Of a stretch of 64,000 nucleotides of DNA, positions 24,079 through 38,652 are shown piece by piece. Positions within the stretch are counted from its first letter, which is position 1, and every line of letters begins with the position of its first letter. A program made the position numbers and the translations under genes. The notes below the pieces were generated by a model, which was not told the DNA's origin, did not search any database, and worked only from the letters and a program-made list of their open reading frames with translations. The DNA comes from a virus, in IMG/VR virus record IMGVR_UViG_3300028844_006278. The stretch is one strand, 5' to 3'.

Positions 24079-26415
24079 TTAGTGGGGGTCGCATTCGTCG
24101 TAGTCGAATAGAGATACCCCTGCCTGAGCAGTAGCGTCCTCTCCGTTCCCGCTCTGGTCCGGAACATCAGTAAGGGTAGACTGGTTGCCGACATAGTGGA
24201 ACAGTGCTCCGGCTGGGGGCTCCTTAAAGCATCCTGCCGCGTAGAAGTCGGACGGCGTCTCGTATGAGTCGTACATACATATGTGATCCAAATACCCGTC
24301 GACAGTGCCCATGCGTCCGGCGGAAGTAAGTACCGATATCCCGGTACCGGGCCAGCTAGTGCTGGTAGACTCGGAGTACATACTAGTCCCGTCGCTCAGC
24401 CATAGCTGCGCTGTGTTAGTAGAGGACTGGTATCTCCACACAAGCTGCCTCCAGACATTATCGTCCCACCCCAATGTAGAAGAGTACATACGGACATCGC
24501 CTACACTCGGATGGTGGCTGATGATTCTAATCTTAGTGCCGTCGCGGTCCCACCATACGTTCTGGATTGATCCGGACGACGGGCGATAGAACGCTGTGAA
24601 GCTGGCGGTGGAGTCCCATCGAAACCGGCCCGCTATTGTAAGATCTGTGAATGTGCTCCAGGTCGGTGTAGCATCCATTGTAATATACCCGGACCCTATG
24701 TCAAACGCCTGAAGTTGGGGAGCCGGGGCGGCGGCTACTAGGCTCGAAATCTCGTAGAGGCTAGACACATCGACCGGGCTAGACACATCCACAGGGCTCG
24801 ACACATCGACCGGGCTAGACACATCGACCGGGCTAGACACATCGACCGGGCTCGATACATCGACCGGGCTCGATACATCGACCGGGCTCGAAATCTCGTA
24901 GAGGCTCGAAATCTCGTAGAGGCTCGAAATCTCGTATAGGCTAGACACATCTACAGGGCTAGACACATCGACCGGGCTCGATACATCCACAGGGCTCGAC
25001 ACATCTACAGGGCTAGACACATCTACAGGGCTAGACACATCTACAGGGCTCGACACATCGACCGGGCTCGAAATCTCGTATAGGCTCGAAATCTCGTATA
25101 GGCTCGAAATCTCGTATAGGCTCGAAATCTCGTAGAGGCTAGACACATCTACAGGGCTAGACACATCGACAGGGCTAGACACATCGACCGGGCTCGATAC
25201 ATCGACCGGGCTCGACACATCTACAGGGCTCGAAATCTCGTATAGGCTCGAAATCTCGTAGAGGCTCGACACATCTACAGGGCTAGACACATCGACCGGG
25301 CTCGAAATCTCGTATAGGCTCGACACATCGACCGGGCTAGACACATCCACAGGGCTCGAAATCTCGTATAGGCTCGAAATCTCGTATAGGCTAGACACAT
25401 CTACAGGGCTCGACACATCTACAGGGCTAGACACATCTACAGGGCTCGACACATCCACAGGGCTCGACACATCCACAGGGCTCGACACATCCACAGGGCT
25501 CGACACATCCACAGGGCTAGACACATCTACAGGGCTAGACACATCTACAGGGCTAGACACATCTACAGGGCTCGACACATCTACAGGGCTAGACACATCT
25601 ACAGGGCTCGACACATCTACAGGGCTAGACACATCGACAGGGCTCGACACATCGACAGGGCTCGATACATCCACCGGGCTAGATACATCCACCGGGCTAG
25701 AAATCTCGTAGAGGCTCGAAATCTCGTATAGGCTCGAAATCTCGTATAGGCTAGACACATCTACAGGGCTAGACACATCTACAGGGCTCGACACATCTAC
25801 AGTGCTAGATACATCGACCGGGCTCGAAATCTCGTAGAGGCTCGAAATCTCGTAGAGGCTAGACACATCGACCGGGCTAGACACATCCACAGGGCTCGAC
25901 ACATCTACAGGGCTAGACACATCTACAGGGCTCGACACATCCACAGGGCTCGACACATCTACAGGGCTAGACACATCCACAGGGCTCGACACATCCACAG
26001 GGCTAGACACATCTACAGGGCTCGACACATCGACCGGGCTAGACACATCCACAGGGCTCGACACATCTACAGGGCTCGACACATCTACAGGGCTCGATAC
26101 ATCCTCAGCAAATGGATTATCGGAAGATGCAAATCTATCAGATAAGCTAGACATCTCCTGAGCCGTAAGAGATATTGCATAAGAGCTGCTGGAAGGAGTG
26201 AATGCAACAGAGACGCCCTGGGCGGCGATGGAAGATGCGCCGAGTAGCGAACTAGAGGAGCTGGTACCTAGGCAGTCCGCGCACGTTTCGTACGTAGGCA
26301 CGCCCCCCGCTTCAGGCGAGTTGGGGACAGTAGTCACGTATCTGGCAAACGAGAAGCACTTCCCGTCTATCTTGACTACTTCTCCGGCAAACTCAGGTAA
26401 TATACGATGGTCCAT
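24079..26415 (-). CDS. Mucin-like fibre/adhesin: N-terminal Cys module, ~75 Ser-rich hexapeptide repeats, C-terminal LamG-like lectin domain
   Basis: GEVVKIDGKCF...YETCADC; (SSPVDV)/(SSLYEI)n; DLTIAGRF, DNVWRQLVWRY, DGYLDHICMYD, DQSGNGEDAT. Confidence 0.7.
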   Translation of the reverse strand: MDHRILPEFAGEVVKIDGKCFSFARYVTTVPNSPEAGGVPTYETCADCLGTSSSSSLLGASSIAAQGVSVAFTPSSSSYAISLTAQEMSSLSDRFASSDNPFAEDVSSPVDVSSPVDVSSPVDVSSPVDVSSPVDVSSPVDVSSPVDVSSPVDVSSPVDVSSPVDVSSPVDVSSPVDVSSPVDVSSLYEISSLYEISSPVDVSSTVDVSSPVDVSSPVDVSSLYEISSLYEISSLYEISSPVDVSSPVDVSSPVDVSSPVDVSSPVDVSSPVDVSSPVDVSSPVDVSSPVDVSSPVDVSSPVDVSSPVDVSSPVDVSSPVDVSSPVDVSSPVDVSSPVDVSSLYEISSLYEISSPVDVSSPVDVSSLYEISSPVDVSSPVDVSSLYEISSLYEISSPVDVSSPVDVSSPVDVSSPVDVSSPVDVSSLYEISSLYEISSLYEISSLYEISSPVDVSSPVDVSSPVDVSSPVDVSSPVDVSSPVDVSSPVDVSSLYEISSLYEISSLYEISSPVDVSSPVDVSSPVDVSSPVDVSSPVDVSSPVDVSSPVDVSSLYEISSLVAAAPAPQLQAFDIGSGYITMDATPTWSTFTDLTIAGRFRWDSTASFTAFYRPSSGSIQNVWWDRDGTKIRIISHHPSVGDVRMYSSTLGWDDNVWRQLVWRYQSSTNTAQLWLSDGTSMYSESTSTSWPGTGISVLTSAGRMGTVDGYLDHICMYDSYETPSDFYAAGCFKEPPAGALFHYVGNQSTLTDVPDQSGNGEDATAQAGVSLFDYDECDPH
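24740..26103 (-). repeat. 18-bp coding tandem array (~75 units, two unit types)
   Basis: Units such as gggctagacacatctaca and aggctcgaaatctcgtat with synonymous variants; no spacers. Confidence 0.97.
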
Positions 26416-26428
26416 AACGTCCTTCTGG

Positions 26429-28261
26429 TTACTCTAGCGTAAGGGTCTCGCCGTCTTCTGTTATGAAGTTCTCCCCGGTCTCGAGAACTAACCCGAATTC
26501 TTCCGCAGATGACGAGGACGGTGACGTATCTAATACAGCTCCTACACAATCTAAGCAATCGAAGTACGGTCCGAGGACATTAATGGGAGGAGAGAGGAAG
26601 TCGAATACCACGTCGCAATACGGACTGGATGATCCCTCCTCTAGCATCGTAAAGCACGCGCTGCTGCTTACATCGAAATGAACTTCAAAAGTCTCGCCCG
26701 GAATAAACTGGTCTATGTAGTAGGAAGGAATGCACCACACTTCCTCGTCTTGGCAGTGAAGGGCCAGAGTCATATCAGGCATCGCCGCATCGTCGTTGAT
26801 AAGAGTCACTCGGCCGGATAGGTCTAAGACAGAACTGTCAGAGGAGGACGAGTTCTCTTCTATTGGCCTCTGGTCTACAAGAGCCTGCTGTCCGTCATCC
26901 TTCGCAGACAGCAGAGGATCCAATACATCGTCCGGTAGGCCACTAGCGCAGTCGAAGCACCCGTCGAATACATCATCCAAGGTCGGGGAAGACAGCACAC
27001 GCGTGCTACCTGAGGAGCAGGATGGAAGAGAGTCCGACGGGCCTGTATGTACGTCGATGAATGAATAGCAGACTCCGTCAATCTTAAGGACATCCCCGTC
27101 TACGAACCCGGCTACGCTAGAAGAGGCTCCGTTAAGCAGGTCATCCATACATGCCCACGTACAGCTGTAAATAGGCACGGTAGGCATTCCATATACCTCG
27201 TGTATGCCTCGGACGTCTTCGTAGGACTTAACAAGCCCGCCACCGCCCCACGATTTATCCAGCCGACCTGCTCCGTATATGTGCGAACGATTAACGACTG
27301 TGGGAAACAATACGGACTTATAGGAATGAGTAGCGTATACCGGAGTGCCCTTAAAGGATTCGTTGTGCTTAAATCCTAGAGAATGTCCTATCTCATGCGC
27401 AGCTACATAAGCTATGCTATATGAGTTAGTATCCCCTCTGTGCTTGTTAGAAGAGTCCTTAGACCAAGGACTGCCTCTATCAAAATGTAAGACAGTCCCT
27501 CCAGCTCCGTTCCCTATCTTAGCGTACCTAAGCGGATAGGAGGCGTGAGCTAGTGCGGACAGATCCTCCATGCCGAACCGGAAATCTCCTCTAGTTAGTG
27601 AGGGATTGCTATTCTCGTCACCCGTGTACGTGAACTCCACCGTAAGTTGGTTGGAGAACCCGAACGATGGGCTATATGCGAACTCAAACGCAGCCTTCCA
27701 TTGGTCGAACGCGGATTGTATCTCTGCGAGAAATTCAGCCTTCGTTACTGGATTTCCTGTAGTGCTGCGCTCTGCGCTAACATCCGCAACCGGGTCCTCT
27801 TTTAGCTCGAAGATAGGGGCATGCCACGGAGAGCCTCTGGTATATTTCTGAAGTGTCCACGTGAAGGAAATAGTCTGGGGACCCTCCGCTAGGTCATCTA
27901 CAGCATCCTTCAGCTCGTACCAGTATCCGCCCTCTTCACCGGTCCAGGCACCTTCGTACGTATAGGGCTCTGTTGCCACAAAGCAGTTATCGAGCCGCGC
28001 CCACTCCAAGCATTCGTACAAGCTGATAGATACAGAGCTCGAGCTTACAACCAATGTACTAGGTGTCGTGGAGCTAGGGACCTCAGAGACTGCTATAGCC
28101 GAACAATCTTCGCACGTATCATACCTAGATGCATCGGAGTCTAGGATATCCGGCTCTCCTGACGAGGCGTACCCGTCAAAGATATAGCATACGCCGTCTA
28201 TCTTCACCACATCTCCGGAGTAATCCGGGAGTAAGTATTCTCTGTCTCCGTATATAGGCAT
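26429..28261 (-). CDS. Matrixin-like (M10, metzincin) zinc metalloprotease flanked by three Cys modules
   Basis: AFDQW...DFRFG...LAHASYP...HFD...W, VAAHEIGHSLGFKH (27365-27397), SVLFP at the Met-turn; C-terminal LETGENFITEDGETLTLE. Confidence 0.85.
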   Translation of the reverse strand: MPIYGDREYLLPDYSGDVVKIDGVCYIFDGYASSGEPDILDSDASRYDTCEDCSAIAVSEVPSSTTPSTLVVSSSSVSISLYECLEWARLDNCFVATEPYTYEGAWTGEEGGYWYELKDAVDDLAEGPQTISFTWTLQKYTRGSPWHAPIFELKEDPVADVSAERSTTGNPVTKAEFLAEIQSAFDQWKAAFEFAYSPSFGFSNQLTVEFTYTGDENSNPSLTRGDFRFGMEDLSALAHASYPLRYAKIGNGAGGTVLHFDRGSPWSKDSSNKHRGDTNSYSIAYVAAHEIGHSLGFKHNESFKGTPVYATHSYKSVLFPTVVNRSHIYGAGRLDKSWGGGGLVKSYEDVRGIHEVYGMPTVPIYSCTWACMDDLLNGASSSVAGFVDGDVLKIDGVCYSFIDVHTGPSDSLPSCSSGSTRVLSSPTLDDVFDGCFDCASGLPDDVLDPLLSAKDDGQQALVDQRPIEENSSSSDSSVLDLSGRVTLINDDAAMPDMTLALHCQDEEVWCIPSYYIDQFIPGETFEVHFDVSSSACFTMLEEGSSSPYCDVVFDFLSPPINVLGPYFDCLDCVGAVLDTSPSSSSAEEFGLVLETGENFITEDGETLTLE

Positions 28262-28346
28262 AAAGCGGTCTCTGGTGTTTACAGGCAGTCAGGCGGCTGT
28301 GGGGAATACACTGGTGTAAGCACTTTAGTACAGTAAATCATAGAGG

Positions 28347-28781
28347 CTAGGTGGATATGCTGTCAGACGATGAGCTATCCGGCAAGGAAGACGATGAGTC
28401 TTTGCTTGAAGACGATGAGCTATCCGGCAAGGCAGACGATGAGCTATCCGGCAAGGCAGACGATAAGTCTTCGATTAAAGACGATGATCTATCCGGCAAG
28501 GCAGACGATGAGCTATCCGACAAGGCAGACGATGAGTCTTTGCTTGAAGACGATGAGCTATCCGGCAAGGCAGACGATGAGTCTTCGCTTGAAGACGAAG
28601 TAGACGAACAATCATCACACGTCTCGTAGGCCACAAGCTCGTCTAAGTCTATGTCGTCAGCAGCGGCGCTAGACTCGAAGCCTCGGAATTTATAGCAAAT
28701 TCCGTCAATCTTCACGACCTCGCCTACGTAGTGCGGTAATCGGTAATTTCTGTCTCCATATATGGGAGGGGGTATAGGCAT
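28347..28781 (-). CDS. Cys module plus Ser/Asp-rich repeat tail
   Basis: IYGDRNYRLPHYVGEVVKIDGICY...YETCDDC then (SSSALPD)n; N-terminus paralogous to 26429-28261. Confidence 0.75.
   Translation of the reverse strand: MPIPPPIYGDRNYRLPHYVGEVVKIDGICYKFRGFESSAAADDIDLDELVAYETCDDCSSTSSSSEDSSSALPDSSSSSSKDSSSALSDSSSSALPDRSSSLIEDLSSALPDSSSSALPDSSSSSSKDSSSSLPDSSSSDSIST
28364..28600 (-). repeat. Imperfect 21/24-bp coding repeats
   Basis: gacgatgagctatccggcaaggca recurs about six times. Confidence 0.85.
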
Positions 28782-28796
28782 GGTGCTGTTTCTCTT

Positions 28797-31700
28797 TTAT
28801 CCTATCGCTATGAGGTCTATAAACTCAGGTCCGTCTCCGCACCGTATTTGGTCCCTGTAGTATCTACCTTCCGGAGATGATCCACACACTTGGACGCCAT
28901 ACCATGACGTATCCAAGCTCGGACTAAGAAGCGTCATCTTCAGCTCCCATATACCTGTAGATGGCAGGTCTCCATCGGCCACGAACCGTACGTAGGTCTC
29001 GTCAAAGTACATCCGAGCATCTCTAGTGGGGCTATACTCTACTCTGTCCGCGGGCGTAGGATCTACTCCGCGGTCTGGGTTCCACTGATCGGTTCCGTTA
29101 AAGTAAAAGTCCCCTGACCAAGCATACAGAGAGGACTGGTCGAGGTCGTACGCTGAACACCCTGGAGCATTCAGCATAGTTCCTACATCTTGTACTGTCT
29201 CTAAGATGGAAGACGCGGAGCCGTCCCAGTACCCTATGCAGTTCGTACTGCTATCTGCCGGGGGAGCCGATCCGACGGTATGAGTAGAGGACGAGGAACT
29301 TGTCGGAGATACCTCGGAGGACGAGGAACTTGTCGGAGATACCGCGGAGGACGAGGAACTTGTCGGAGATACCGCGGAGGACGAGGAGGAGGAGTTAAAC
29401 ACATCGCAGGGTATATATCTCGCTAGACGCCTAGATGATATGGTCGAAGATGATGACACAAGAACAGAGCTCGAAGACGGACTAATAGAGGGCACAGATG
29501 AGCTGGACGGCAGTATCGACGAGCTGGACAGCATTATCGACGAGCTGGACAGTGTCACGGATGAGGACGAAGAGACGTCACATGGCTCATATACCGCGAT
29601 TAGCTGACTACTTACTGCGCTGCTACTGCTCTGCTCGCAGGTACGGCAGTCAGCGTAGGGGCCCGACACAAAGGTAGGAGTAAGTTCCAGAACAGTCCAC
29701 GTATCCGGACAGGATGTATCCATAGCACAGTCTGATATAGAGTAGCAGCGTCCGTCCAAGCTAAGAATATCTCCGACTTCCGCGTCGAATGGAATATTAG
29801 ACTTTGCCACAAATGTACACTTCTCCAACACGTCTGGAAAGCATGGAGAAAGCCTATAATACTCGCAGCAGTCGTCGCAATCCGCGTACGGACCTTTGAC
29901 CTCTGCCGGCTGAGGCAGTACTACGACAGTCGGCCATATGCAGTCTACCCCATCCCCTATGTATGTCTTCTTCCTACCCTTTATACGATAGCACTTAGGT
30001 CCGTAGTTCGGGCTCTCTGGATCTGTCTCAGGAAGCGTGATACTTATCGTATCTCCTATATCATACTCTACTGTGACGTAGGATTCGCAGATAAACCAGC
30101 AAGACTCCAGAATGTACGGGAAGCATGGCTCTAACTCCAGATATTCTGTGCATGGCGAGGACGAGGACGATGACGTAGCTCCTACACAATCTAAGCAATC
30201 CGCGTACGGACCTTTGACCTCTTCCGGTTGAGGCAGGACTTTGACTGTAGGCCATCTGCAGTCTGGCGCAGCCCCTATGTCTGTCTCCGTCCTATCCGCT
30301 ATACGATAGCACCTAGGGCTCTCCGGAGCCTCTCCAGGAAGCCTGATATTTATCGTATCTCCTATATCATACTCTACTGTGACGTAGGATTCGCAGATAA
30401 ACCAGCAAGACTCAAAAATGTGCGGGAAGCATGGCTCTAACCCCAGATATGCTGTGCATGACGGGAGCGATGGGGAGGAAATAGACGGCGCGCTGCTGCT
30501 GCTACTACTTATTACGTCAGAAGATGATGACGAGACCGTGTCGCACGGCTCGTATACAGCAATCACGGACACACTGCTCTCGCTAGTGCTTATGCTGCTC
30601 TCGCTGGTGCTTATGCTGCTCTCGCTGGTGCTTATGCTGCTCTCGCTGGTGCTTATGCTGCTCTCGCTGGTGCTTATGCTGCTCTCGCTGATGCTTATGC
30701 TGCTCTCGCTGGTGCTTATGCTGCTCTCAGAGGACACAGTAGAGCTAGACGACCCCGCACATGCTGAGATATACGCACGCGCCTCGTACGCGTAGCAATA
30801 CTCCCCTTCTACGCAGGGATGCGCAACGCCCGGCTCAGTACCTATACCGCACTGCTCTTCTCCGTACAGGCCTGCCGTCACTGACGGAAAATCATCCCCT
30901 CGTACGACCAGCCACCCGGTAGATAGGCCTGACCTATATGTAGCGAAGATGATCCACCAGTCCGGATCAGATACACCTCTATAGGCCGGGAAGGAGTTAA
31001 ATGTACCAACATGTGCGTACTGCTGATCTGCGCCTGCGTACTTGTCTGGGTTTTCGTTAACCGAAAACGACAGTGAGTAGCAGGTTTCGAACGCGCACCG
31101 TCGGGCGGCCGTAGATCCTGTAAGTGAAGACAGCTTGGCGGCACATGCTGAATAGTCCGAGTACGGGCCCTCGACCTGTAGTCCTCCCAGGGACGGCACT
31201 ATAAGCTCGCATCCGTCTCCTTGGCCCTGATAGTCGGCGACTTCGTCAAGTATCTCGTAGCACTCTGTTCCTGCTATAAACGTGTCTCCGATCTGAGCTC
31301 CGAGCGGCGCCTCGAATGCACTGATATAGAAGCACTGGTAAGGGGAGCCCCCTTCTATATCTGCTGGCAGAAGATTAGGAGGTCCACCATCGTCCTCGAA
31401 TGCCGGGTTGGATATTTTGAAGAAGGTCTCCTCGCACGGCAGATATAAGGGGTACACCTCTGCTGAGGACTCTACTAGCGGGACTGCCGTTATACACCAC
31501 GACGCGGTCAGAGAGTAATATCCAGGCGTCTGCTCGATCAGCGTGTGGTCGAACCCGCATAGGATTCCACCCTCCTCTTCCGTTATCTCAACAGCGCTGG
31601 AGGACAGGCGCAGGACCACTTCCGACACGTCCGCGCCCTCTCGATACAGGCATTCGTCGGTGAGTTCTCTGAAATCGCCTCCCGGACATCCTATGTAATG

Positions 31701-31892
31701 GCAGGGGCCGTGGACTTCCTGCCCGGAGGAGCTCGTAGGGCATCCCACGGCATCGTCAGGGCCGGTACTAGCAGGCAGGTTCTTAACCACAAAAATATCC
31801 GGATCCTCGCCCTCTCTAGTAGGGGAGACTTCCAGGACAGCCAAGTAGCTATGCACCGCCCGATTATACACCTTGTGTATAATCAGTTCCAC
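28797..31892 (-). CDS. Large Cys/Ser-rich modular protein (putative fibre/scaffold)
   Basis: Four extended Cys modules ending GPYxDCxxC or similar, three isolated (I/L)AxYxPCD motifs, Ser-rich repeats; GGAGG RBS before GTG. Confidence 0.75.
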   Translation of the reverse strand: MELIIHKVYNRAVHSYLAVLEVSPTREGEDPDIFVVKNLPASTGPDDAVGCPTSSSGQEVHGPCHYIGCPGGDFRELTDECLYREGADVSEVVLRLSSSAVEITEEEGGILCGFDHTLIEQTPGYYSLTASWCITAVPLVESSAEVYPLYLPCEETFFKISNPAFEDDGGPPNLLPADIEGGSPYQCFYISAFEAPLGAQIGDTFIAGTECYEILDEVADYQGQGDGCELIVPSLGGLQVEGPYSDYSACAAKLSSLTGSTAARRCAFETCYSLSFSVNENPDKYAGADQQYAHVGTFNSFPAYRGVSDPDWWIIFATYRSGLSTGWLVVRGDDFPSVTAGLYGEEQCGIGTEPGVAHPCVEGEYCYAYEARAYISACAGSSSSTVSSESSISTSESSISISESSISTSESSISTSESSISTSESSISTSESSISTSESSVSVIAVYEPCDTVSSSSSDVISSSSSSAPSISSPSLPSCTAYLGLEPCFPHIFESCWFICESYVTVEYDIGDTINIRLPGEAPESPRCYRIADRTETDIGAAPDCRWPTVKVLPQPEEVKGPYADCLDCVGATSSSSSSPCTEYLELEPCFPYILESCWFICESYVTVEYDIGDTISITLPETDPESPNYGPKCYRIKGRKKTYIGDGVDCIWPTVVVLPQPAEVKGPYADCDDCCEYYRLSPCFPDVLEKCTFVAKSNIPFDAEVGDILSLDGRCYSISDCAMDTSCPDTWTVLELTPTFVSGPYADCRTCEQSSSSAVSSQLIAVYEPCDVSSSSSVTLSSSSIMLSSSSILPSSSSVPSISPSSSSVLVSSSSTISSRRLARYIPCDVFNSSSSSSAVSPTSSSSSAVSPTSSSSSEVSPTSSSSSTHTVGSAPPADSSTNCIGYWDGSASSILETVQDVGTMLNAPGCSAYDLDQSSLYAWSGDFYFNGTDQWNPDRGVDPTPADRVEYSPTRDARMYFDETYVRFVADGDLPSTGIWELKMTLLSPSLDTSWYGVQVCGSSPEGRYYRDQIRCGDGPEFIDLIAIG
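29287..29387 (-). repeat. 30-bp coding repeat x3 (SSSSxVSPTS)
   Basis: gaggacgaggaacttgtcggagatacc three times. Confidence 0.85.
30044..30413. repeat. Direct repeat from a recent module duplication (64 identical nt, 306-nt offset)
   Basis: 30044-30107 is identical to 30350-30413. Confidence 0.9.
30574..30728 (-). repeat. 21-bp coding tandem repeat (SSISTSE x7)
   Basis: gctgctctcgctggtgcttat units. Confidence 0.92.
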
Positions 31893-31937: not shown

Positions 31938-32237
31938 CTAGGGTAAGATAAACATATCGCCGTCTCCTAGAATATACCCAGGATCTGTGATATTAACCAC
32001 TTCGATGTTCGATAACGACGACCGCTGGAGCCGGACGTTAGTCTTTATATGATCGATAGCCACAGGCAGTACCCGCTCCATTGCTACCTTAGATCGGAAA
32101 AGCATTGCGATATTGTCTGACCGGTACAGGTCTCCCAGGTCTGCTGAGAGCGGGTGAACCATGAGGTCAGTAGGTGATGCGATGGATATCAGGACCTTTG
32201 TCGGATCTATGTCTGGGAGCTCTGGATCTTCATTCAT
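31938..32237 (-). CDS. Hypothetical protein, paralog of the C-terminal half of 34162-34548
   Basis: IASPTDL..HP...LYR...MLFRS...HIKTNV aligns with IASYADI..YP...FFR...LIFQS...QIKNTV. Confidence 0.65.
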   Translation of the reverse strand: MNEDPELPDIDPTKVLISIASPTDLMVHPLSADLGDLYRSDNIAMLFRSKVAMERVLPVAIDHIKTNVRLQRSSLSNIEVVNITDPGYILGDGDMFILP

Positions 32238-32299: not shown

Positions 32300-34147
32300 T
32301 CACGTATGGACAATCACGCACTGTATGTCCCCTCGCTGCCTAGTAACATACAAGAGTTCGCCCCAGATCTCTCCGGATATGTGGATCTTATCCCCGGCAG
32401 CGAGTTGCCAAACCGGTCCGGATAGGGGGAAGTACTCGGCCGCTCTAGTCGGATCCAATGCCTGGGCAGGGCCGTCTGAGCCTACAGGTGGCCGAAAGAT
32501 CTGGTAGGGCAGGGCATTAAGTATATGCTCATCACCATCCGATAATCGGAGGCCCAGCTTATAATACTCGCTTATGTTCGCTCGAGAGGTGCCGCTCACT
32601 CGTTTAACCCCGACGGCAGGCCGGCCGGACTCTGATAGGTAGGACGAGACTACCCTATGGCCCTCCTGCAGATCTTCGCACGAATATGGACCACCTAGAG
32701 GAGCAGGCACTGTGCAGACAGTAGTCCCCGGAAGTAGCGGTATGTCCTCAGACTCCGGTATAGCGATTGTAGGGCCTTCATACCGAATGTCCGTGTACGT
32801 CGATAGATTATGCACTAGGAATCCGTTGGCGAATAAGGTTAGGTAATTTGCGACGTCCCATACAGCCACAGACTCTTCAGGTCCTTGGTGCTCATCTATA
32901 CTTAAGATAGGATGCCATGCCCTATCCTTAGAGTACAACTCATCCTCTGCTCGTAGAGGCAGTATCTCCGATAGATATGGGTACTCCGCTGTGGCCTTGG
33001 CTGCATCTATGGCCTTCCAAGCTTCCTCTCCGGGAGCGGATCTAGCATATACGGGCTGAGTGTCTGAGATCTCGAGAGTACCTCCGGATAATGTCCGGAT
33101 CTGCCAGTACGCAAGCACGGATGATTTACAGGTACCTCTAATGGGCTGGAAATCTAGAGCGCCGTCGTACTCTGAGTATGAGAATACAGTATCTCCAGAG
33201 GCTAGATCCGATATAGGAACAACTCCCCGATCGCCGGTTAGTACGGTAGTAGAGCGGGATACAAGGGATCCCTTATTGTGTAAGAGCACCCCATCTGCGA
33301 AGTAGTTCCTATTGTCCTCTACCGCCCATAAATTATATACCTGCTTCTGCCCGGGATATTCCGATACAGAGGATATCTGATCCCACTCTCCACTCTTTGT
33401 TAGGACAAAGTCCCCTGCCGACATCTTCAGCAGTCGTCGTAGATACGGGTGCGATTTACGGGATCGGGAGGGGCAGTAGGATGCCCACCCTATCCCCGAT
33501 CCGGGCTTACGGACATACACTGGCTGGGAGGTGGTGATCCCCAGAGACGTCCCAGACTGTAGATTCAGCGTGATGTACCGGTCAACTAGCGGAGCATCTA
33601 TGCCGAGGACTCGTTTACCTTCGACCTGCTCGCTTACCTCGTTGTAGGAGAGCACAATGTCGCCTACCTGCACATCTTCGACTTTTATCTCCCCTCCTCC
33701 TGGAACTGATATTAAGGTGCTGGCCACTACGCATCCTCCTGGAATATCGTCCGAGGACGAGGACCCCGCCCCAACCTGCAACGTGCACAGATCCTGCATA
33801 AATACATGGGAGGCATTACGTACATACGGCATAGATATCTGCACAGGCGCGTCGAGCGTTACCCCTCGTACAGAGGATACGACAATATCTCCGTCTTCGC
33901 TGCGGAGAACGGCGCCCTCTACCAGTCCTCGATCCTTCTGGATAAAGCCAGAGGTGTTCTCAGCAGAGAAGAACTTGGTAGACGCTGAGAATACGTGGAT
34001 GTCATTTATTACGACAAATTCACGTACTGTTGTCTGAACTGCTTTGAATACCTTCCTCGTCTCAATATCTAGCTCCGGGGACAGCGTCGCTATCTCCATA
34101 CCCCTCTTCCAGGTCGGTAAAGCATCAAGCACGTCTTGATCCGTCAT
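32300..34147 (-). CDS. Tandem Hint (intein-like/BIL) domain protein
   Basis: aa139-291 CVVASTLI...VEDVQVGDIVLS...VYNL...NYFADGVLLHN; aa~295-447 ending LFANGFLVHN; degenerate copies at aa~10-125 and ~470-615. Confidence 0.88.
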   Translation of the reverse strand: MTDQDVLDALPTWKRGMEIATLSPELDIETRKVFKAVQTTVREFVVINDIHVFSASTKFFSAENTSGFIQKDRGLVEGAVLRSEDGDIVVSSVRGVTLDAPVQISMPYVRNASHVFMQDLCTLQVGAGSSSSDDIPGGCVVASTLISVPGGGEIKVEDVQVGDIVLSYNEVSEQVEGKRVLGIDAPLVDRYITLNLQSGTSLGITTSQPVYVRKPGSGIGWASYCPSRSRKSHPYLRRLLKMSAGDFVLTKSGEWDQISSVSEYPGQKQVYNLWAVEDNRNYFADGVLLHNKGSLVSRSTTVLTGDRGVVPISDLASGDTVFSYSEYDGALDFQPIRGTCKSSVLAYWQIRTLSGGTLEISDTQPVYARSAPGEEAWKAIDAAKATAEYPYLSEILPLRAEDELYSKDRAWHPILSIDEHQGPEESVAVWDVANYLTLFANGFLVHNLSTYTDIRYEGPTIAIPESEDIPLLPGTTVCTVPAPLGGPYSCEDLQEGHRVVSSYLSESGRPAVGVKRVSGTSRANISEYYKLGLRLSDGDEHILNALPYQIFRPPVGSDGPAQALDPTRAAEYFPLSGPVWQLAAGDKIHISGEIWGELLYVTRQRGDIQCVIVHT

Positions 34148-34161
34148 AATAGTATGCTCCT

Positions 34162-34548
34162 TTAGCAGTCGTTAACTATTACTTCTACAGCCTCTTCGCC
34201 GTTAAGTCGAACCAGATCCTCTACTGTATTTTTAATCTGCCCTTCTATGAGATCCCACGTATCTGAGAGGTGCGGGAGACTCTGGAAGATGAGATCTACG
34301 TAATACTTACGGAAGAACGGAGAATCCTCGCCGGGATCATTCTCTGGATAGTCGGCTATATCGGCATAGGACGCTATGTGTACGAAGAGGTCTGCGAGTA
34401 CATCATAGGAAGGAACGGAGGGAAGTCTCTGGTACACGAAGACCGTCGGCGGAAGGTTATCGGAAGTCTCTGAGACCCAGACACGCATCCTATGTCGACT
34501 ATCCTCCTCTAGTGTCACCCTCCTTGAGATCTGTATGTAGCTGCTCAT
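34162..34548 (-). CDS. Hypothetical (probably virion) protein
   Basis: 128 aa in operon; halves paralogous to two downstream genes. Confidence 0.75.
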   Translation of the reverse strand: MSSYIQISRRVTLEEDSRHRMRVWVSETSDNLPPTVFVYQRLPSVPSYDVLADLFVHIASYADIADYPENDPGEDSPFFRKYYVDLIFQSLPHLSDTWDLIEGQIKNTVEDLVRLNGEEAVEVIVNDC

Positions 34549-34551
34549 ATT

Positions 34552-34821
34552 CTAGACTGCTCCGCTGAGATAGAGGGCCTCTCCGTGTAGTTTCTCCGAC
34601 GAGCCCTGCGTCGGCACAGGTATTATGCCGGATTTGATGGCCGCCTTAAGAAGATCTAGACCTATTGTCGGATATCCTAACTCCTGGATTTCAGATGCCC
34701 CCGGCAGGCCTTGCTCCGCCAACTCATCTGTAGGATGCTCGTCTCCCTTTATGAGGGAGGCAAGGATACAGCTGGCTGCCGCCAATCCGTCACTATTGTT
34801 AAAAGTACCGGGAGCAATCAT
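34552..34821 (-). CDS. Hypothetical protein
   Basis: 89 aa, overlaps the upstream stop. Confidence 0.6.
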   Translation of the reverse strand: MIAPGTFNNSDGLAAASCILASLIKGDEHPTDELAEQGLPGASEIQELGYPTIGLDLLKAAIKSGIIPVPTQGSSEKLHGEALYLSGAV

Positions 34822-37097
34822 TTATAGGGAGATGGTGGAGCATATAGCAGGGTCGGGGCGGTGGCGTCAAGCGTGATACCTGTGTTTCTCCGTATATACG
34901 GAGCATCTACAAACCCGCGTACGAACGAAGTGTCGCCTGCGTTCAGAGTCTTCCCTATAGATATAGTGTTCGCCGATGGTAGGATGCTTCCGGCGAATGC
35001 CCTAGAGCCCAGCACGGTGCCGTCCAGGCTGAACTGCATGACGTTCCCCACCCTGTTCCATTCTAGCCAGTACCACGTGTCGTTATTTATAGTAGGAGTC
35101 CCACCACATCCCCAGTACCCTCCGTCCGGTCCCAGTCCTGCCATCCCCGCCTCAGTCCATGCCGAATATAGTGTTTTACCTCCGCTTGCTGCCCAGCCGG
35201 CAGGCTCGAAGGATATCACCCAGCACTCCCCGTTAGCGGAACCCCAGTTCGCAAAAATGTTCTGGTTTTGGGTATTATCTGTAGTACGCCATGCTATCCC
35301 TATCTCGAAGTTTTCTGTGCCGAAGTTGAAGCACGAGTGATAGTCTGCGGTAGCTAGGTCGGCACTAGTGTGCCTAGGGTCGTCGTACGTATTTCCCCAG
35401 TTCGGGAACGCGCCGGCAGTCATTGCGCCGTTGCCTCTTGTATTTATAGTCACATAGCTGCCTGCTGCGAAGCCTGTTATGCTGTCGGTGCCTATGTACG
35501 CCTGGGCGTTCGATACAGACGGTGTGCCTAGGGTAAGAGTTTGGTGCTGCTCTGTAGCATCTACCGCCGACCCTCCGTCTACATTAAGCGCAAGCAGAAC
35601 CTCGCAGCACATGTCTGCGCAGCAGTCGCAGTCATCGTACGACACTAGGGGAGTACTTACTGTATCTGGGGCCACGTCCGTCGTGTACTCTACGAAGGAA
35701 TAGCACTCTGAGCTGGACTGGAGTATAGAAGTAATGCCTGTTATTCCACCGGCATCCGACTCTTCGAATACATACTCGCCTCCTATTCCATCGCAGTCCT
35801 CGAACCTCATGCTTAGCGTAGTAGTATCACAAGTGGAGCAAAACTCGAACTCGTAGTCTATACTAGCGGCAGTAGTGGCAGCGGCTACGTATTGATCAAA
35901 CTCATAGCATACGCCGTCAATGCGTACGACCTCTGAGGTAGTGGTAGCGTCTGAGACAATCTGAGAGGAGGCCGGGTTATCGCACCTGACGTACTGTCGG
36001 TTATTGCCTGCACATGTCGCGCAATCAGCAAACTCGGCATCTATATCTACGCCCGTATGCGTGACAGGATCCGTGGTAGTGCTGATGAAGTCATAGCACA
36101 CTCCTCCTATCTTTATAGTCTGGGAACTTGTGTACTGGCTAGAAATAACCACCGCAGACGATCCGAGTATGCACTCCTCGTATAGCCTATATGTCTCACA
36201 AGCTCCACACGATGTGTGCGACGCATCAGGAGCCGCGTTGGTAGACGCGTCTTCTGTGAACTCGAAGAACTCGTAACACCCGCTGTTGATCTCTATTACA
36301 GAGTCTGTGGCCGGCACCTGGTTCTCAGGTATAATGACCTCGGCAACCCCGTCTACGCAAGACTTATACCTAGCCTGGATGCTAGTAGCAGCGCAGTCGG
36401 CGCAATCCGTGTAGTTCGAATAATCGATAGAGGTATGTGTCGTAGCAGCCAGTGTTGAGGATGTGGACGAGTAGCACACTTCATCAACTCGTACGATAAC
36501 TTGTCCCGGAGCTACGCTTTCCCGGATAACTAAGCTGGGGGCGGCAGCCGCACAATCTACGTACTCAATGGCGGAGAATGTGCTAGCGCATGACTCGCAA
36601 GTTACGAACTCGTTATCCACTGCAAACACGTCCGCCGCGGTCTCTACATACTCTGTAGACGAGTAGCATTTACCGCTGACCTCGACAATAGCTGCGACAG
36701 TTACCGCGTCGTCTATGTAGATAATGTCCGACGGATCTGCGCAGTTGGTATACCGTATGTTTAGGTCTATATCAGAGCAGTCCTGGCAGGTGTCGAACTC
36801 GTAGTCGAACTCTGTGTCGGTGATAGCGTCTTGGGTAGCGCCTACTCGCTCGTAACAGGCTCCGTCAATCTGGATAATTTGGGCATCTCCGGCTACAACC
36901 GGACTTAGTACTACAGGCATCTCAGGACCCCCGCAGTCTGTGTACTTTACGTTCGCTTCCCTGGCCGAAGAACTCCCCGGGCACTCCACAAACAGGACCT
37001 CGGAACATACCGTAAACCCCTCCCCATCGCACCGCAGCTCGCATCCCAAGGGGCGCTCTCTTACGGTGACATTTTCTATTCTGTGCTGGGAAGACAT
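34818..37097 (-). CDS. Fibre/adhesin: seven tandem four-Cys modules and a C-terminal LamG-like domain
   Basis: 7x YxxC...IxGxCY...(Y/F)xxCxxC; then FNFGTENFEIGIAW, NDTWYWLEWNRVGN, FSLDG, ISIG, GFVD. Confidence 0.8.
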   Translation of the reverse strand: MSSQHRIENVTVRERPLGCELRCDGEGFTVCSEVLFVECPGSSSAREANVKYTDCGGPEMPVVLSPVVAGDAQIIQIDGACYERVGATQDAITDTEFDYEFDTCQDCSDIDLNIRYTNCADPSDIIYIDDAVTVAAIVEVSGKCYSSTEYVETAADVFAVDNEFVTCESCASTFSAIEYVDCAAAAPSLVIRESVAPGQVIVRVDEVCYSSTSSTLAATTHTSIDYSNYTDCADCAATSIQARYKSCVDGVAEVIIPENQVPATDSVIEINSGCYEFFEFTEDASTNAAPDASHTSCGACETYRLYEECILGSSAVVISSQYTSSQTIKIGGVCYDFISTTTDPVTHTGVDIDAEFADCATCAGNNRQYVRCDNPASSQIVSDATTTSEVVRIDGVCYEFDQYVAAATTAASIDYEFEFCSTCDTTTLSMRFEDCDGIGGEYVFEESDAGGITGITSILQSSSECYSFVEYTTDVAPDTVSTPLVSYDDCDCCADMCCEVLLALNVDGGSAVDATEQHQTLTLGTPSVSNAQAYIGTDSITGFAAGSYVTINTRGNGAMTAGAFPNWGNTYDDPRHTSADLATADYHSCFNFGTENFEIGIAWRTTDNTQNQNIFANWGSANGECWVISFEPAGWAASGGKTLYSAWTEAGMAGLGPDGGYWGCGGTPTINNDTWYWLEWNRVGNVMQFSLDGTVLGSRAFAGSILPSANTISIGKTLNAGDTSFVRGFVDAPYIRRNTGITLDATAPTLLYAPPSPYK

Positions 37098-37128: not shown

Positions 37129-38652
37129 CTATACTGTACAACAGTACGCTACGGCGGCTTCGTACGCCATAGCGCCTTCGTCGAATACTGTATAGCATGT
37201 AAAATAATCCACCGTGTTTGGGTCGTCCTCGCAGTTGGCAGGCGCATCTGTATTTAGCGCTTGGTCTAGAGCAGCTTGTGCAGCATCCTCTGCGGTTGCT
37301 CCGTACGCCACTGAAATGAACTGAGTTGATCCCGGGTAATCCGCGCACATTAGAGCCTCGGTGGGACAGGCAGGGGAACATGCGTCCCCCGCTTTCCCCA
37401 TAGCCGTTGCCGCAGCATCGCAAGTTTCCTCGCACCAGGGCGCAGGATCGTCCTGAGCAACAATAGGTGTGAAGTCCTCTAAGTATGTAGGAGGAGTTCC
37501 CGAGACTATAGTTGCCCATACCGGCTGCTCTTGGTAATCTCTGTTTACATCCAAGTCCTCCGGAGGCAGCGGAGGCAGATTTCCGGGTATTACTACGGAC
37601 TCTGATCGAGGAGGCTTTACGTTCCACTGGAGTCCGGAGATTACACCATCGTGCACGACTATGTTGGCATAGTATACATAAAGTCTCCCATCCTCGTAGC
37701 ATTGGATATCTACCACAACCGGGATAATCCCTAGCGGCTCTTCTCTGCTCACTTCGTCAGATTCGTAAGGATTTCTCGGTGTACGGACAGACTCGTCTTG
37801 GTTGATATCTATATTAGTAGTCAGACTGTTCGGGGACGGCCAGCGAGGAAAATGCAGCTCTCTATTTACAAACTCATCGGCACTAGAAGACCACCCGCAG
37901 TCGTCTTTTAGGCAGCAGCTCTTGGGATATCCTGCAACCAGTTGGAAGCTCTGGTCGGTATCGTCTGCTCTATAGACATCCCGTACCTCTGGCTTCTCCC
38001 TACGAGTTAGCCTAATCTCGCCATTTACTATCTCCGCCTCTATGTGATCGGGCAGATCGTCTGGTTGCGGACAGCATCCTGTATCTAATGGAGGGCCGTC
38101 TGGGTTGAACTCCCGGACTGTTAGAGTTTCTCCGCCGGAAACTACCGTTGTGCCGTCTCCGCCTCCAAACGAGAAGAACGGGATAGTGTCTATAGATGGA
38201 AAGCGAGGCCGTCCGATAGATAGTGAGTTGGACTCTACGCCCTCTCCGGGACAGTAGCAGGTATCCTCCAGTACATCGGTCTGCAGGGCGCCGCTGATGT
38301 TGCCGGTAAGGGACCATAGGTCTGGATATTCTAGAGATGTGGGAGGTACAGGGCAGTCAGGGTCTAGAGGTGTGTAGGGATTGGTAAGAGAATCCCACCT
38401 GCTGTCGTACCCCCCTGTGTCTATCTCCACGTCTGGGGCATAGGATCCCGGCAGCCGCGCATAGTTATTGGCATTGTTCAGAGCAAATGTGTCGCACCCT
38501 GTAGTGGGAGTGACTGCTACGGAGTCTGTCGCCTCGCATACCGCGCATCCTCGAGCGGGCCCAGACCCTTCTGTCCCGTCCGGACATGCGCCGAAGTCCC
38601 GATACACGGCCCCTCGCCTAGTACTCGTATAAGATGTAAAAAGGCGTCTCAC
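37129..38652 (-). CDS. Cys/Pro/Asp-rich putative tail fibre-associated protein
   Basis: 507 aa in the structural operon; VVVDIQC strand; many Cys. Confidence 0.65.
   Translation of the reverse strand: MRRLFTSYTSTRRGAVYRDFGACPDGTEGSGPARGCAVCEATDSVAVTPTTGCDTFALNNANNYARLPGSYAPDVEIDTGGYDSRWDSLTNPYTPLDPDCPVPPTSLEYPDLWSLTGNISGALQTDVLEDTCYCPGEGVESNSLSIGRPRFPSIDTIPFFSFGGGDGTTVVSGGETLTVREFNPDGPPLDTGCCPQPDDLPDHIEAEIVNGEIRLTRREKPEVRDVYRADDTDQSFQLVAGYPKSCCLKDDCGWSSSADEFVNRELHFPRWPSPNSLTTNIDINQDESVRTPRNPYESDEVSREEPLGIIPVVVDIQCYEDGRLYVYYANIVVHDGVISGLQWNVKPPRSESVVIPGNLPPLPPEDLDVNRDYQEQPVWATIVSGTPPTYLEDFTPIVAQDDPAPWCEETCDAAATAMGKAGDACSPACPTEALMCADYPGSTQFISVAYGATAEDAAQAALDQALNTDAPANCEDDPNTVDYFTCYTVFDEGAMAYEAAVAYCCTV

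What the first reader, a model, noticed from the sequence alone, without database searches (positions are those of the whole stretch)
24079..30563. Split-module docking: three orphan YxPC strands on one protein, three proteins missing that strand
Seen: complete modules have four Cys, the first in a YxxC strand (RLYEEC, ARYKSC, IEYVDC). The N-terminal modules of 28347-28781, 26429-28261 and 24079-26415 have only three Cys and lack this strand. The gene just upstream (28797-31892) has three isolated strands set in poly-Ser: IAVYEPCD (30540-30563), IAVYEPCD (29577-29600) and LARYIPCD (29403-29426). Inference: donor-strand complementation closing an intermolecular Zn site or disulfide, giving three docking sites for three cargo proteins. 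Caveat: 24079-26415 ends in FDYDECD and 26429-28261 has SLYEC, so cis completion or chain formation is also possible.
Basis: inference. Interest (0 to 1): 0.85.

Follow-up and report, generated by a model that had tools for sequence, protein, structure and literature searches.

The report
Split Cys-module docking in phage tail proteins
In an uncultured 165-kb phage, three neighbouring tail-appendage genes start with a small 3-cysteine domain that lacks its first strand, while the gene upstream carries three spare copies of that strand. Relatives and modelling suggest an undescribed snap-together way of building phage appendages, but binding itself has not been shown.

Summary

**What is there**
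- The window lies in a complete 164,893-bp phage genome.
- Five adjacent minus-strand genes downstream of a baseplate-wedge gene share a ~60-aa 4-Cys module. AF2 gives pLDDT 95. There is no Pfam family and no PDB match.

**Family-wide pattern**
- The module profile hits 191 representatives among 1.84 billion proteins.
- 113 of 114 internal modules have the first Cys. Only 3 of 107 N-terminal modules do.
- Most members are therefore N-terminal 3-Cys "acceptors" that begin just after strand 1, usually followed by poly-Ser.

**The orphan strands**
- The three strands in 28797-31892 are conserved in a 68%-identical relative. One has 15/15 residues identical with 13 codons changed only synonymously, while the linkers carry indels.
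- Similar orphan strands in Ser-rich linkers lie beside acceptor genes in all seven other acceptor-bearing loci examined. One was a blind check on a 3-Cys-only protein.
- AF2 docks a relative's natural orphan strand as a confident β-strand.

**Verdict**
- Trans strand complementation is the best explanation (about 0.6).
- The exact 3:3 pairing and the Zn-versus-disulfide question are unproven.
- Extra candidate donors exist, and relatives suggest daisy chains.
- The scan holds no note of this on other DNA.

The parts
28797..31892 (-). Scaffold protein (1031 aa, GTG start with an AGGAGG Shine-Dalgarno). It has an N-terminal Cys-rich domain, a Ser-rich linker with donor 1, three 8-Cys variant modules, Ser-rich linkers with donors 2 and 3, and a ~150-aa C-terminal domain. 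It has no acceptor module.
30540..30563 (-). Orphan strand 1 (IAVYEPCD, Cys450) in a Ser-rich linker.
29577..29600 (-). Orphan strand 2 (IAVYEPCD, Cys771). It differs from strand 1 at 5 of 8 codons, all synonymously.
29403..29426 (-). Orphan strand 3 (LARYIPCD, Cys829). The 15-aa region is identical in relative L001, with 13 synonymous-only codon changes.
29637..30458 (-). Three enlarged 8-Cys variant modules of the scaffold. Their even Cys count suggests they are self-contained. One is deleted in relative L001.
28593..28781 (-). N-terminal 3-Cys acceptor module of the 144-aa protein 28347-28781. The rest of the protein is a Ser-rich tail with no other Cys.
28088..28261 (-). N-terminal 3-Cys acceptor module of the 610-aa protein 26429-28261. 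The cargo is an M10 matrixin-like metalloprotease with motif HEIGHSLGFKH, plus one complete and one variant module.
28010..28027 (-). ISLYEC, a doubtful donor. It runs straight into the protease domain and is followed 9 residues later by a second Cys, so it is probably a local pair. It is conserved in three homologues.
26257..26415 (-). N-terminal 3-Cys acceptor module of the 778-aa protein 24079-26415. It is followed by a ~460-aa array of 6-aa repeats and a tentatively LamG-like domain.
24088..24111 (-). C-terminal orphan strand LFDYDECD of 24079-26415. It lies about 40 residues beyond the end of the LamG-like alignment, after a Gly/Asp/Ala-rich linker. It is a candidate extra donor for a chain or for cis closure.
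35610..36959 (-). Seven tandem complete 4-Cys modules of the 759-aa protein 34818-37097. They serve as the reference for the complete fold (AF2 pLDDT 95).
36981..36998 (-). VLFVEC, an orphan-like strand between the conserved N-terminal L-R-C-D-G anchor motif and the first complete module of 34818-37097. The homologous position in relative L009 holds six orphan strands in poly-Ser.

Best explanation
The ~60-aa module is a small beta fold. Strand 1 ends in Cys1. Then come strand 2, a hairpin carrying Cys2 (G-x-C-Y), strand 5, and a C-x-x-C at the start of a short helix.

In this phage lineage, many tail-appendage genes begin immediately after the strand-1/Cys1 position. The result is a ~50-aa N-terminal 'acceptor' with three Cys and a vacant strand slot. 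Isolated strand-1/Cys1 peptides ('donors') are displayed in flexible poly-Ser linkers of neighbouring proteins.

The most likely mechanism is that a donor strand inserts into an acceptor and supplies the fourth Cys. One module is thereby rebuilt across two polypeptides, with either a shared Zn(Cys)4 site or a completed disulfide pair.

In this window that would tether three proteins to the three donors of scaffold 28797-31892:
- the Ser-rich protein 28347-28781;
- the metalloprotease 26429-28261;
- the repeat-stalk, LamG-like protein 24079-26415.

The C-terminal donor of 24079-26415 and the VLFVEC strand of 34818-37097 may extend the network.

Shown: the anatomy, the family-wide pattern, conservation, co-location of the genes, and structural compatibility in an AF2 model of a relative.

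Inferred: that binding occurs in trans, which donor takes which acceptor, the metal or disulfide chemistry, and the location on the virion.
For: 1. The fold is real. AF2 of one complete module gives pLDDT 95, with strand 1 at residues 3-8 directly before Cys1.

2. The family pattern is strong.
- The profile search of 1.84 billion representatives gave 191 hits. Most match profile positions ~14-62 at residues ~2-50 of the protein.
- 113/114 internal modules have a Cys 12-40 residues before Cys2, against 3/107 N-terminal modules (Fisher p about 1e-58).
- His in the C2-C3 loop is equally frequent in both classes (32% against 31%), so there is no substitute ligand.
- 67 of 104 acceptor proteins have an odd total Cys count, and 16 have exactly three.

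3. The complete genome (direct terminal repeats) contains exactly three N-terminal acceptors, all just downstream of the scaffold. The scaffold has donors but no acceptor, and 28347-28781 has no Cys outside its acceptor.

4. The donors are under purifying selection.

5. Donors and acceptors recur together in relatives.
- L001: 3 donors, 3 acceptors.
- L011 and L016: one donor in the gene directly upstream of an acceptor gene.
- L007: an acceptor+donor protein followed by an acceptor gene.
- L014: three acceptor genes carrying 2, 1 and 0 donors.
- L009: six donors in poly-Ser on the homologue of 34818-37097, with three acceptor genes nearby.
- L017: chosen blind from a 3-Cys-only protein, whose upstream neighbour carries a typical donor in poly-Ser.

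6. Among family proteins, [aromatic]-x-x-C in a Ser-rich context occurs 17 times. Eleven of these are orphan strands and six are the acceptor's own C3 motif. The reversed motif occurs twice.

7. AF2 of the natural acceptor, poly-Ser, orphan strand segment of relative P0145 gives:
- acceptor pLDDT 89-95;
- linker pLDDT 59;
- orphan strand as E64-69, in a block of pLDDT 90;
- tail pLDDT 60-66;
- all five models at mean pLDDT 80-82.
Against: - There is no direct evidence of binding in trans. The one positive structural model is a cis arrangement on a relative's protein, and no coordinates were available to confirm that the strand sits in the strand-1 slot.
- Counts are not strictly matched. The window has 3 acceptors against 3 clear donors plus 2-3 further candidates. 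L009 is 6:3, L016 is 2:1 and L007 is 1:2, though the last two contigs are partial.
- Proteins carrying both acceptor and donor could close on themselves.
- The sample of relatives is small (eight loci) and was not corrected for shared ancestry.
- Virion location is inferred only from gene order. The baseplate wedge hit is phrog_6 at E 1e-8 for 47158-48729.
Confidence: 0.6

Rival explanations
1. The strand-and-acceptor chemistry is the same, but the purpose differs. Donors and acceptors mainly close in cis or link head-to-tail into daisy chains or a cross-linked mesh. For example, the C-terminal donor of 24079-26415 could bind its own or the next protein's acceptor. On this reading they do not form three dedicated docking sites on one scaffold.
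For: - Relatives have acceptor and donor on the same chain: P0130 in L007, P0145 and its upstream neighbour in L014, P0044 in L016, and gene 9076-9924 in L017.
- AF2 closes P0145 in cis.
- 24079-26415 has an even Cys count with a C-terminal donor.
- L017 has four consecutive acceptor genes, three with a strand+Cys after the linker. That pattern fits a chain.
Against: - The scaffold 28797-31892 and the L009 scaffold carry 3 and 6 donors but no acceptor. 28347-28781 and P0054 carry an acceptor but no other Cys. So at least some pairs must be trans and are not simple self-closure.
- In some relatives the donor follows C-x-x-C by only 9 residues (P0098), which is too short to fold back.
Confidence: 0.2
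2. The orphan strands do not bind acceptors. They could be self-association nodes, for example three copies meeting on the axis of a trimeric fibre with a Cys3 metal site. Or they could be structural knots or relics of decayed modules in the Ser-rich stalk. The 3-Cys N-terminal domain is then a self-sufficient anchor that attaches elsewhere on the virion.
For: - Phage fibres are commonly trimers (general knowledge).
- The counts of donors and acceptors are unequal.
- A conserved N-terminal domain that anchors variable receptor-binding proteins is the standard pattern.
Against: - The strands share the Y-x-x-C signature of strand 1 of complete modules.
- They are conserved under synonymous saturation, so they are not relics.
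- Internal modules almost never lack Cys1, and acceptors have no substitute ligand.
- AF2 pairs an orphan strand with the only folded element present, which is the acceptor.
Confidence: 0.13
3. The orphan strands are ligands for something else, such as a host surface protein, a baseplate protein or an assembly chaperone. Their co-location with acceptor genes would then merely reflect shared membership of the tail-fibre module.
For: None specific. It cannot be excluded from sequence alone.
Against: It does not explain why the strand missing from the acceptors is exactly the one displayed, nor the AF2 result.
Confidence: 0.05

Closest known systems
Branched receptor-binding-protein systems of Klebsiella and Enterobacteria phages. 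Examples are KP32/K11/KP34 (a branching domain on RBP1 plus a conserved N-terminal docking peptide on RBP2; PMC13352976 abstract), the Ackermannviridae tailspike complexes, and RaK2/phiKp24 hyperbranched fibres (PMC10253068, PMC9700779 abstracts).
   Same: One scaffold protein carries several secondary proteins that share a conserved N-terminal attachment element and have variable distal domains. The genes lie side by side at the end of the tail module.
   Different: - The polarity is reversed. Here the scaffold offers short peptides in disordered poly-Ser, and the cargo brings an incomplete folded domain.
- No Pfam-detectable branching domain is present.
- The attachment element is a Cys module with no Pfam or PDB counterpart.
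- No isolate phage in GenBank carries it.
Donor-strand complementation and exchange in chaperone-usher pili (established knowledge)
   Same: An incomplete beta fold on one subunit is completed by a strand from another polypeptide. Subunits that carry both an acceptor groove and a donor extension form chains, as several relatives here could.
   Different: - The fold here is not Ig-like.
- No chaperone or usher genes are present.
- Assembly would take place in the cytoplasm during virion formation.
- The donor also supplies a Cys that would complete a 4-Cys site.
- Donors sit inside poly-Ser linkers, and several occur on one scaffold.
Intermolecular zinc sites: the Rad50 zinc hook and the CD4/CD8-Lck zinc clasp (established knowledge)
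   Same: Four Cys from two polypeptides could share one metal ion and so hold the chains together.
   Different: - Those sites are 2+2. This one would be 3+1 and coupled to strand insertion.
- Metal binding here is only inferred.
- The best PDB similarity is weak: L33-type zinc ribbons at Z 3.3, rmsd 2.2 over 40 residues.
Engineered tag/catcher and split-domain systems such as SpyTag/SpyCatcher and split-GFP strand 11 (established knowledge)
   Same: A short strand tag completes a truncated domain and thereby couples two proteins.
   Different: Those are engineered, and in SpyCatcher the link is an isopeptide bond. This would be a natural system, apparently widespread, with Cys chemistry.

Membership tests
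Undescribed phage 4-Cys module family (defined here) | Strand ending Y-x-x-C, then about 25 aa to G-x-C-Y, then about 22 aa to C-x-x-C. A confident small beta fold. | tested here: met
   - Seven copies lie in 34818-37097.
- AF2 gives pLDDT 95.
- ESM Atlas viral clusters match at TM 0.75-0.80.
- The profile gives 191 hits.
Undescribed phage 4-Cys module family (defined here) | N-terminal 'acceptor' form: starts at Met, Cys2 at residue ~19-25, no Cys before it, usually followed by a Ser-rich linker. | tested here: met
   - All three window proteins fit.
- 104 of the 155 proteins held, including the window's three, share the form.
Chaperone-usher donor-strand complementation | Ig-like pilin fold lacking its last strand; periplasmic chaperone and outer-membrane usher genes. 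| tested here: inconclusive
   - No pilin, chaperone or usher family appeared in Pfam scans of 27 of the window's ORFs, including all cluster proteins.
- Fold searches gave no Ig-like match above noise.
- The resemblance is in the working principle only.
KP32-type branched RBP system | T4 gp10-like branching domain on the primary RBP and a conserved N-terminal docking peptide on the secondary RBP. | tested here: inconclusive
   - No Pfam or PHROG family hits the scaffold.
- The conserved N-terminal element here is a 50-aa Cys domain, not a peptide.
- Remote structural similarity of the scaffold domains was not tested.
Zinc ribbon / treble-clef zinc fingers | Four Cys/His ligands, with structural similarity to known zinc-binding folds. 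| tested here: inconclusive
   - The best VIA-align matches are L33-type ribosomal zinc ribbons at Z 3.3, within the noise range.
- Foldseek gave no match at E<=0.001.
- Only one C-x-x-C knuckle is present.
Zinc ribbon / treble-clef zinc fingers | Bound metal ion. | not testable with these tools
   Needs ICP-MS or a structure. The alternative of two disulfides cannot be excluded.
Peptidase M10 (matrixin), cargo of 26429-28261 | Pfam PF00413 above the gathering score, and the HExxHxxGxxH zinc motif. | tested here: met
   - E 3.1e-13, 50.3 bits against a cut-off of 24.
- The motif HEIGHSLGFKH is in the translation.
Laminin-G/concanavalin-like lectin domain, cargo of 24079-26415 and 34818-37097 | Sequence match to Laminin_G_3. 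| tested here: inconclusive
   - There is no Pfam hit at E<=1.
- 24079-26415 aligns weakly to the Laminin_G_3 region of relative P0042 (E 0.048, 23% identity over 182 aa).
- 34818-37097 shows no BLASTP similarity to P0016.

The most novel reading that the evidence does not exclude
A natural and widespread 'tag and catcher' system of uncultured large phages. Strand+Cys tags of 8-12 residues sit in poly-Ser scaffolds and capture 50-residue 3-Cys catcher domains. Capture works by strand insertion plus a shared metal site or disulfide. Phages could then assemble, branch and daisy-chain interchangeable enzymes and lectin-like tips on their tails simply by adding or removing tags.
Probability: 0.5. 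Interest if true: 0.85.

Novelty: new variant of a known kind. Interest (0 to 1): 0.72.

Why it matters
If confirmed, this would be a new structural principle for attaching and swapping host-recognition and enzymatic modules on phage tails. It combines strand complementation, known from pili, with a shared Cys site, in a domain family that has no Pfam entry, no solved structure and only 'hypothetical protein' labels.

- It would make the appendage architecture of a whole lineage of uncultured 30-340-kb phage contigs readable from sequence, by counting tags and catchers.
- It would offer a compact natural peptide/domain pair for protein coupling and display.
- It is directly testable with three small domains and three peptides.

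Tried and rejected
- **Complex prediction.** The acceptor (alignment A2) with scaffold residues 436-467 and Zn gave no verdict (score 0.02, controls not run). This counts neither for nor against binding.
- **Relatives in IMG/VR.** Single proteins and alignments found none, and two alignments were too diverse to scan. A degenerate DNA pattern found one contig (L003/L008), which carries a single acceptor in the 2.5 kb held.
- **Metagenome scan with the scaffold alignment.** No relative was found.
- **Word-index search with the scaffold N-domain.** It returned only the query itself.
- **GenBank phages.** No match.
- **Fold searches.** Foldseek and VIA-align against the PDB found no convincing match.
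- **Records not reachable.** The records behind L009 and L011 are not held, so those whole genomes could not be searched.
- **Idea rejected: mis-called starts.** The N-terminal modules are bounded upstream by in-frame stops 5-9 codons before the ATG.
- **Idea rejected: partial strand 1.** The 'PIY' at the start of two acceptors sits too close to Cys2 to be strand 1.
- **Idea rejected: Cys3His sites.** His is no commoner in acceptors than in complete modules.
- **Idea rejected: programmed read-through.** The in-frame arrangement of 28797-31892 and 28347-28781 (a stop plus 5 codons) is not in frame in L001.
Only a 20-aa match of the 128-aa protein to the scaffold N-terminus was found (E 0.011), and none to the 99-aa ORF.
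- **Literature.** Four full-text searches found no description of such a system.

Full report
**Context**

The window is part of a complete 164,893-bp phage genome with direct terminal repeats. It encodes:
- a gpA-type large terminase, a family-A DNA polymerase, a helicase and an SbcC-like ATPase;
- a baseplate wedge protein at 47158-48729 (phrog_6, E 1e-8).

About 10 kb downstream of the wedge gene, on the same strand, lies a run of genes:
- 37129-38652 (Cys-rich);
- 34818-37097;
- two small ORFs;
- 32300-34147 (tandem Hint domains);
- 31938-32237;
- 28797-31892;
- 28347-28781;
- 26429-28261;
- 24079-26415.

Virion location of these proteins is inferred from this position only.

**The observation**

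Translation confirms every coordinate and motif in the finding.
- 34818-37097 has seven tandem modules with Cys1 in Y-x-x-C, Cys2 in G-x-C-Y, and Cys3/4 in C-x-x-C.
- The three downstream proteins each start with a module that has only Cys2-4.
- Upstream in-frame stops lie 5-9 codons before each ATG, so strand 1 cannot be hidden by a wrong start.
- The 1031-aa protein has IAVYEPCD twice and LARYIPCD once. Each is an island in Ser-rich linker, and these are the only such sites in the genome with Ser/Thr-rich sequence on both sides.
- A profile built from acceptors finds exactly three N-terminal acceptors in the whole genome.

**The module is a real fold and an undescribed family**

- AF2 on one complete module, using only the window's own 11 copies as alignment, gave pLDDT 95. 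Strand 1 (residues 3-8) abuts Cys1. There is a long hairpin strand carrying Cys2, and a terminal helix starting at C-x-x-C.
- Pfam and PHROGs have no family for it.
- Foldseek against the PDB found nothing at E<=0.001.
- VIA-align's best rows are L33-type zinc ribbons at Z 3.3, which is within noise.
- The ESM Atlas holds viral clusters with the same shape, at TM 0.75-0.80 over 62-64 residues. They are labelled 'hypothetical protein', except that single clusters carry crAss_MUZ_C, SprB or other Pfam domains.

**Family-wide pattern**

A profile of the module against 1.84 billion representatives gave 191 hits. Most are proteins whose first ~50 residues match profile positions ~14-62. This is the same truncated form as in the window, usually followed by Ser-rich linker and varied C-terminal parts.

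| Measure | N-terminal modules | Internal modules |
|---|---|---|
| Cys present before Cys2 (12-40 residues upstream for internal modules) | 3 of 107 | 113 of 114 |
| His in the Cys2-Cys3 loop | 32% | 31% |

- Fisher's exact test on the Cys1 contrast gives p about 1e-58.
- Cys1 is therefore needed by the fold. It is missing systematically only where the gene starts, and no substitute ligand appears.
- Of 104 acceptor proteins, 67 have an odd total Cys count and 16 have exactly three. The 144-aa window protein is one of those.

**The orphan strands are selected**

- The two IAVYEPCD copies differ at five of eight codons, all synonymously.
- In the closest relative found (L001; scaffold 68% identical), all three strands are kept. 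The LARYIPCD region is 15/15 identical with 13 synonymous-only codon changes.
- In the same comparison the linkers have indels and one large variant module is deleted.
- L001 also has three downstream acceptor genes.

**Orphan strands and acceptors travel together**

The loci come from distant relatives that share synteny (tandem-Hint protein, small conserved ORFs, terminase or SbcCD nearby).

| Locus | What was seen |
|---|---|
| L011 | One orphan strand in a Ser-rich linker of the gene directly upstream of an acceptor gene |
| L016 | The same arrangement as L011, and the acceptor protein carries a second orphan strand |
| L007 | An acceptor+donor protein followed by an acceptor gene |
| L014 (340-kb contig) | Three acceptor genes carrying 2, 1 and 0 donors |
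| L009 (160-kb contig) | The homologue of 34818-37097, whose start the gene caller had truncated, carries six orphan strands spaced through poly-Ser, with three acceptor genes nearby |

- As a blind check I took a family member with only three Cys (P0054). It lies fourth in a row of acceptor genes in L017, and the gene directly upstream carries a typical orphan strand in poly-Ser.
- Across family proteins, the forward motif in a Ser-rich context occurs 17 times (11 orphans), against 2 for the reversed motif.
- The counts are of similar size but not equal, and several contigs are partial.

**Structural compatibility**

AF2 was run on a natural segment of relative P0145 (acceptor, 14-residue Ser linker, orphan strand, Ser tail).
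- Acceptor pLDDT was 89-95 and the linker 59.
- The orphan strand came out as a 6-residue beta strand (E64-69) ending just before its Cys, in a block of pLDDT 90.
- The tail was at 60-66.
- All five models agree.
- The acceptor is the only folded element present, so the strand must pair with it. Its register mirrors strand 1 of the complete module.
- The model is cis and cannot by itself show trans binding.

**Reading for this window**

- The scaffold has three donors and no acceptor.
- The 144-aa protein has an acceptor and no other Cys.
- The protease protein has 17 Cys. Its ISLYEC runs straight into the protease domain and is followed by a second Cys nine residues on, so it looks like a local pair rather than a donor.
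- The 778-aa protein has an acceptor at one end and a strand+Cys at the very C-terminus. That strand lies about 40 residues beyond the weak LamG-like alignment.
- 34818-37097 has a VLFVEC strand at the position where L009 has its six donors.
- Trans complementation is therefore required for at least some partners if the acceptors are completed at all. The simple '3 sites for 3 cargoes' picture is probably too tidy.
- One suggestive detail rests on inference only. Two identical donors face two closely similar acceptors (57% identical to each other), and the divergent donor faces the divergent acceptor.

**Chemistry**

Four Cys with one C-x-x-C at a helix start fit a Zn(Cys)4 site, which could form in the cytoplasm during assembly. 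Two disulfides formed after lysis are equally compatible with the sequence. Nothing here decides between them.

**Comparison with known systems**

- In function this resembles branched receptor-binding-protein systems (PMC13352976, PMC10253068, PMC9700779).
- In principle it resembles donor-strand complementation of chaperone-usher pili and intermolecular zinc sites.
- It is not a member of any of these by the features that could be tested.
- No GenBank phage isolate carries the module.
- Four full-text literature searches found no description.
- The scan's own notes mention the module only on this genome.

**Verdict**

- It is a new variant of known kinds of assembly, built on an undescribed domain family.
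- It is directly testable with small domains and peptides.

Noticed in passing
window 36981-37097 (N-terminus of 34818-37097); L009:6463-8139: A conserved N-terminal anchor motif (I-E-N-V ... L-R-C-D-G-x-G-x-x-x-C) is shared by 34818-37097, P0007, P0020, P0025 and the L009 scaffold. It is followed by one orphan strand in the window and six in L009. The anchor has three Cys in L009, so it may itself be completed by the following strand. The JGI gene call in L009 (7384-8139) misses the first ~300 residues of that gene.
   Followed up: partly
window 34162-34548 (-); L009:9054-9464: The conserved 128-aa protein ends in a hydrophobic strand plus a C-terminal Cys (V-I-V-N-D-C-stop). Its 136-aa L009 homologue has a single Cys, again as the last residue. 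This may be another donor-type strand.
   Followed up: no
window 28782-28799: The scaffold gene and the 144-aa gene are in the same reading frame, separated only by the stop codon and five codons. The arrangement is not in frame in relative L001, so it is probably coincidental.
   Followed up: yes
window 32300-34147 (-); L011:4730-8587; L016:2-2647: A protein made of tandem Hint domains without exteins sits inside the cluster. Relatives have about eight Hint units (1285 aa) ending in a collagen-like G-P-x stretch, and the next gene there begins with a similar G-P-x stretch plus a Cys cluster.
   Followed up: no
L005:10001-14851 (P0009 residues ~120-200): In this 1616-aa relative, a strand-1/Cys1 element is separated from the rest of its own (degenerate) module by a 7-Ser insertion. 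This could be an evolutionary intermediate between complete and split modules.
   Followed up: partly
L005:15565-20010; L011:11560-13746; L017:19784-20428: Glycosyltransferase, sulfotransferase and methyltransferase genes lie next to module-bearing genes in several relatives. The long poly-Ser linkers might be glycosylated.
   Followed up: no
window 24740-26103: A ~1.36-kb array of two alternating 18-bp units encodes about 75 six-residue repeats (S-S-P-V-D-V and S-S-L-Y-E-I) in 24079-26415. The Pfam DUF1388 repeat hits it (E 2.4e-24).
   Followed up: no
BLASTP gives only a 20-aa match to the scaffold N-terminus (E 0.011) and nothing to the 99-aa ORF.
   Followed up: partly
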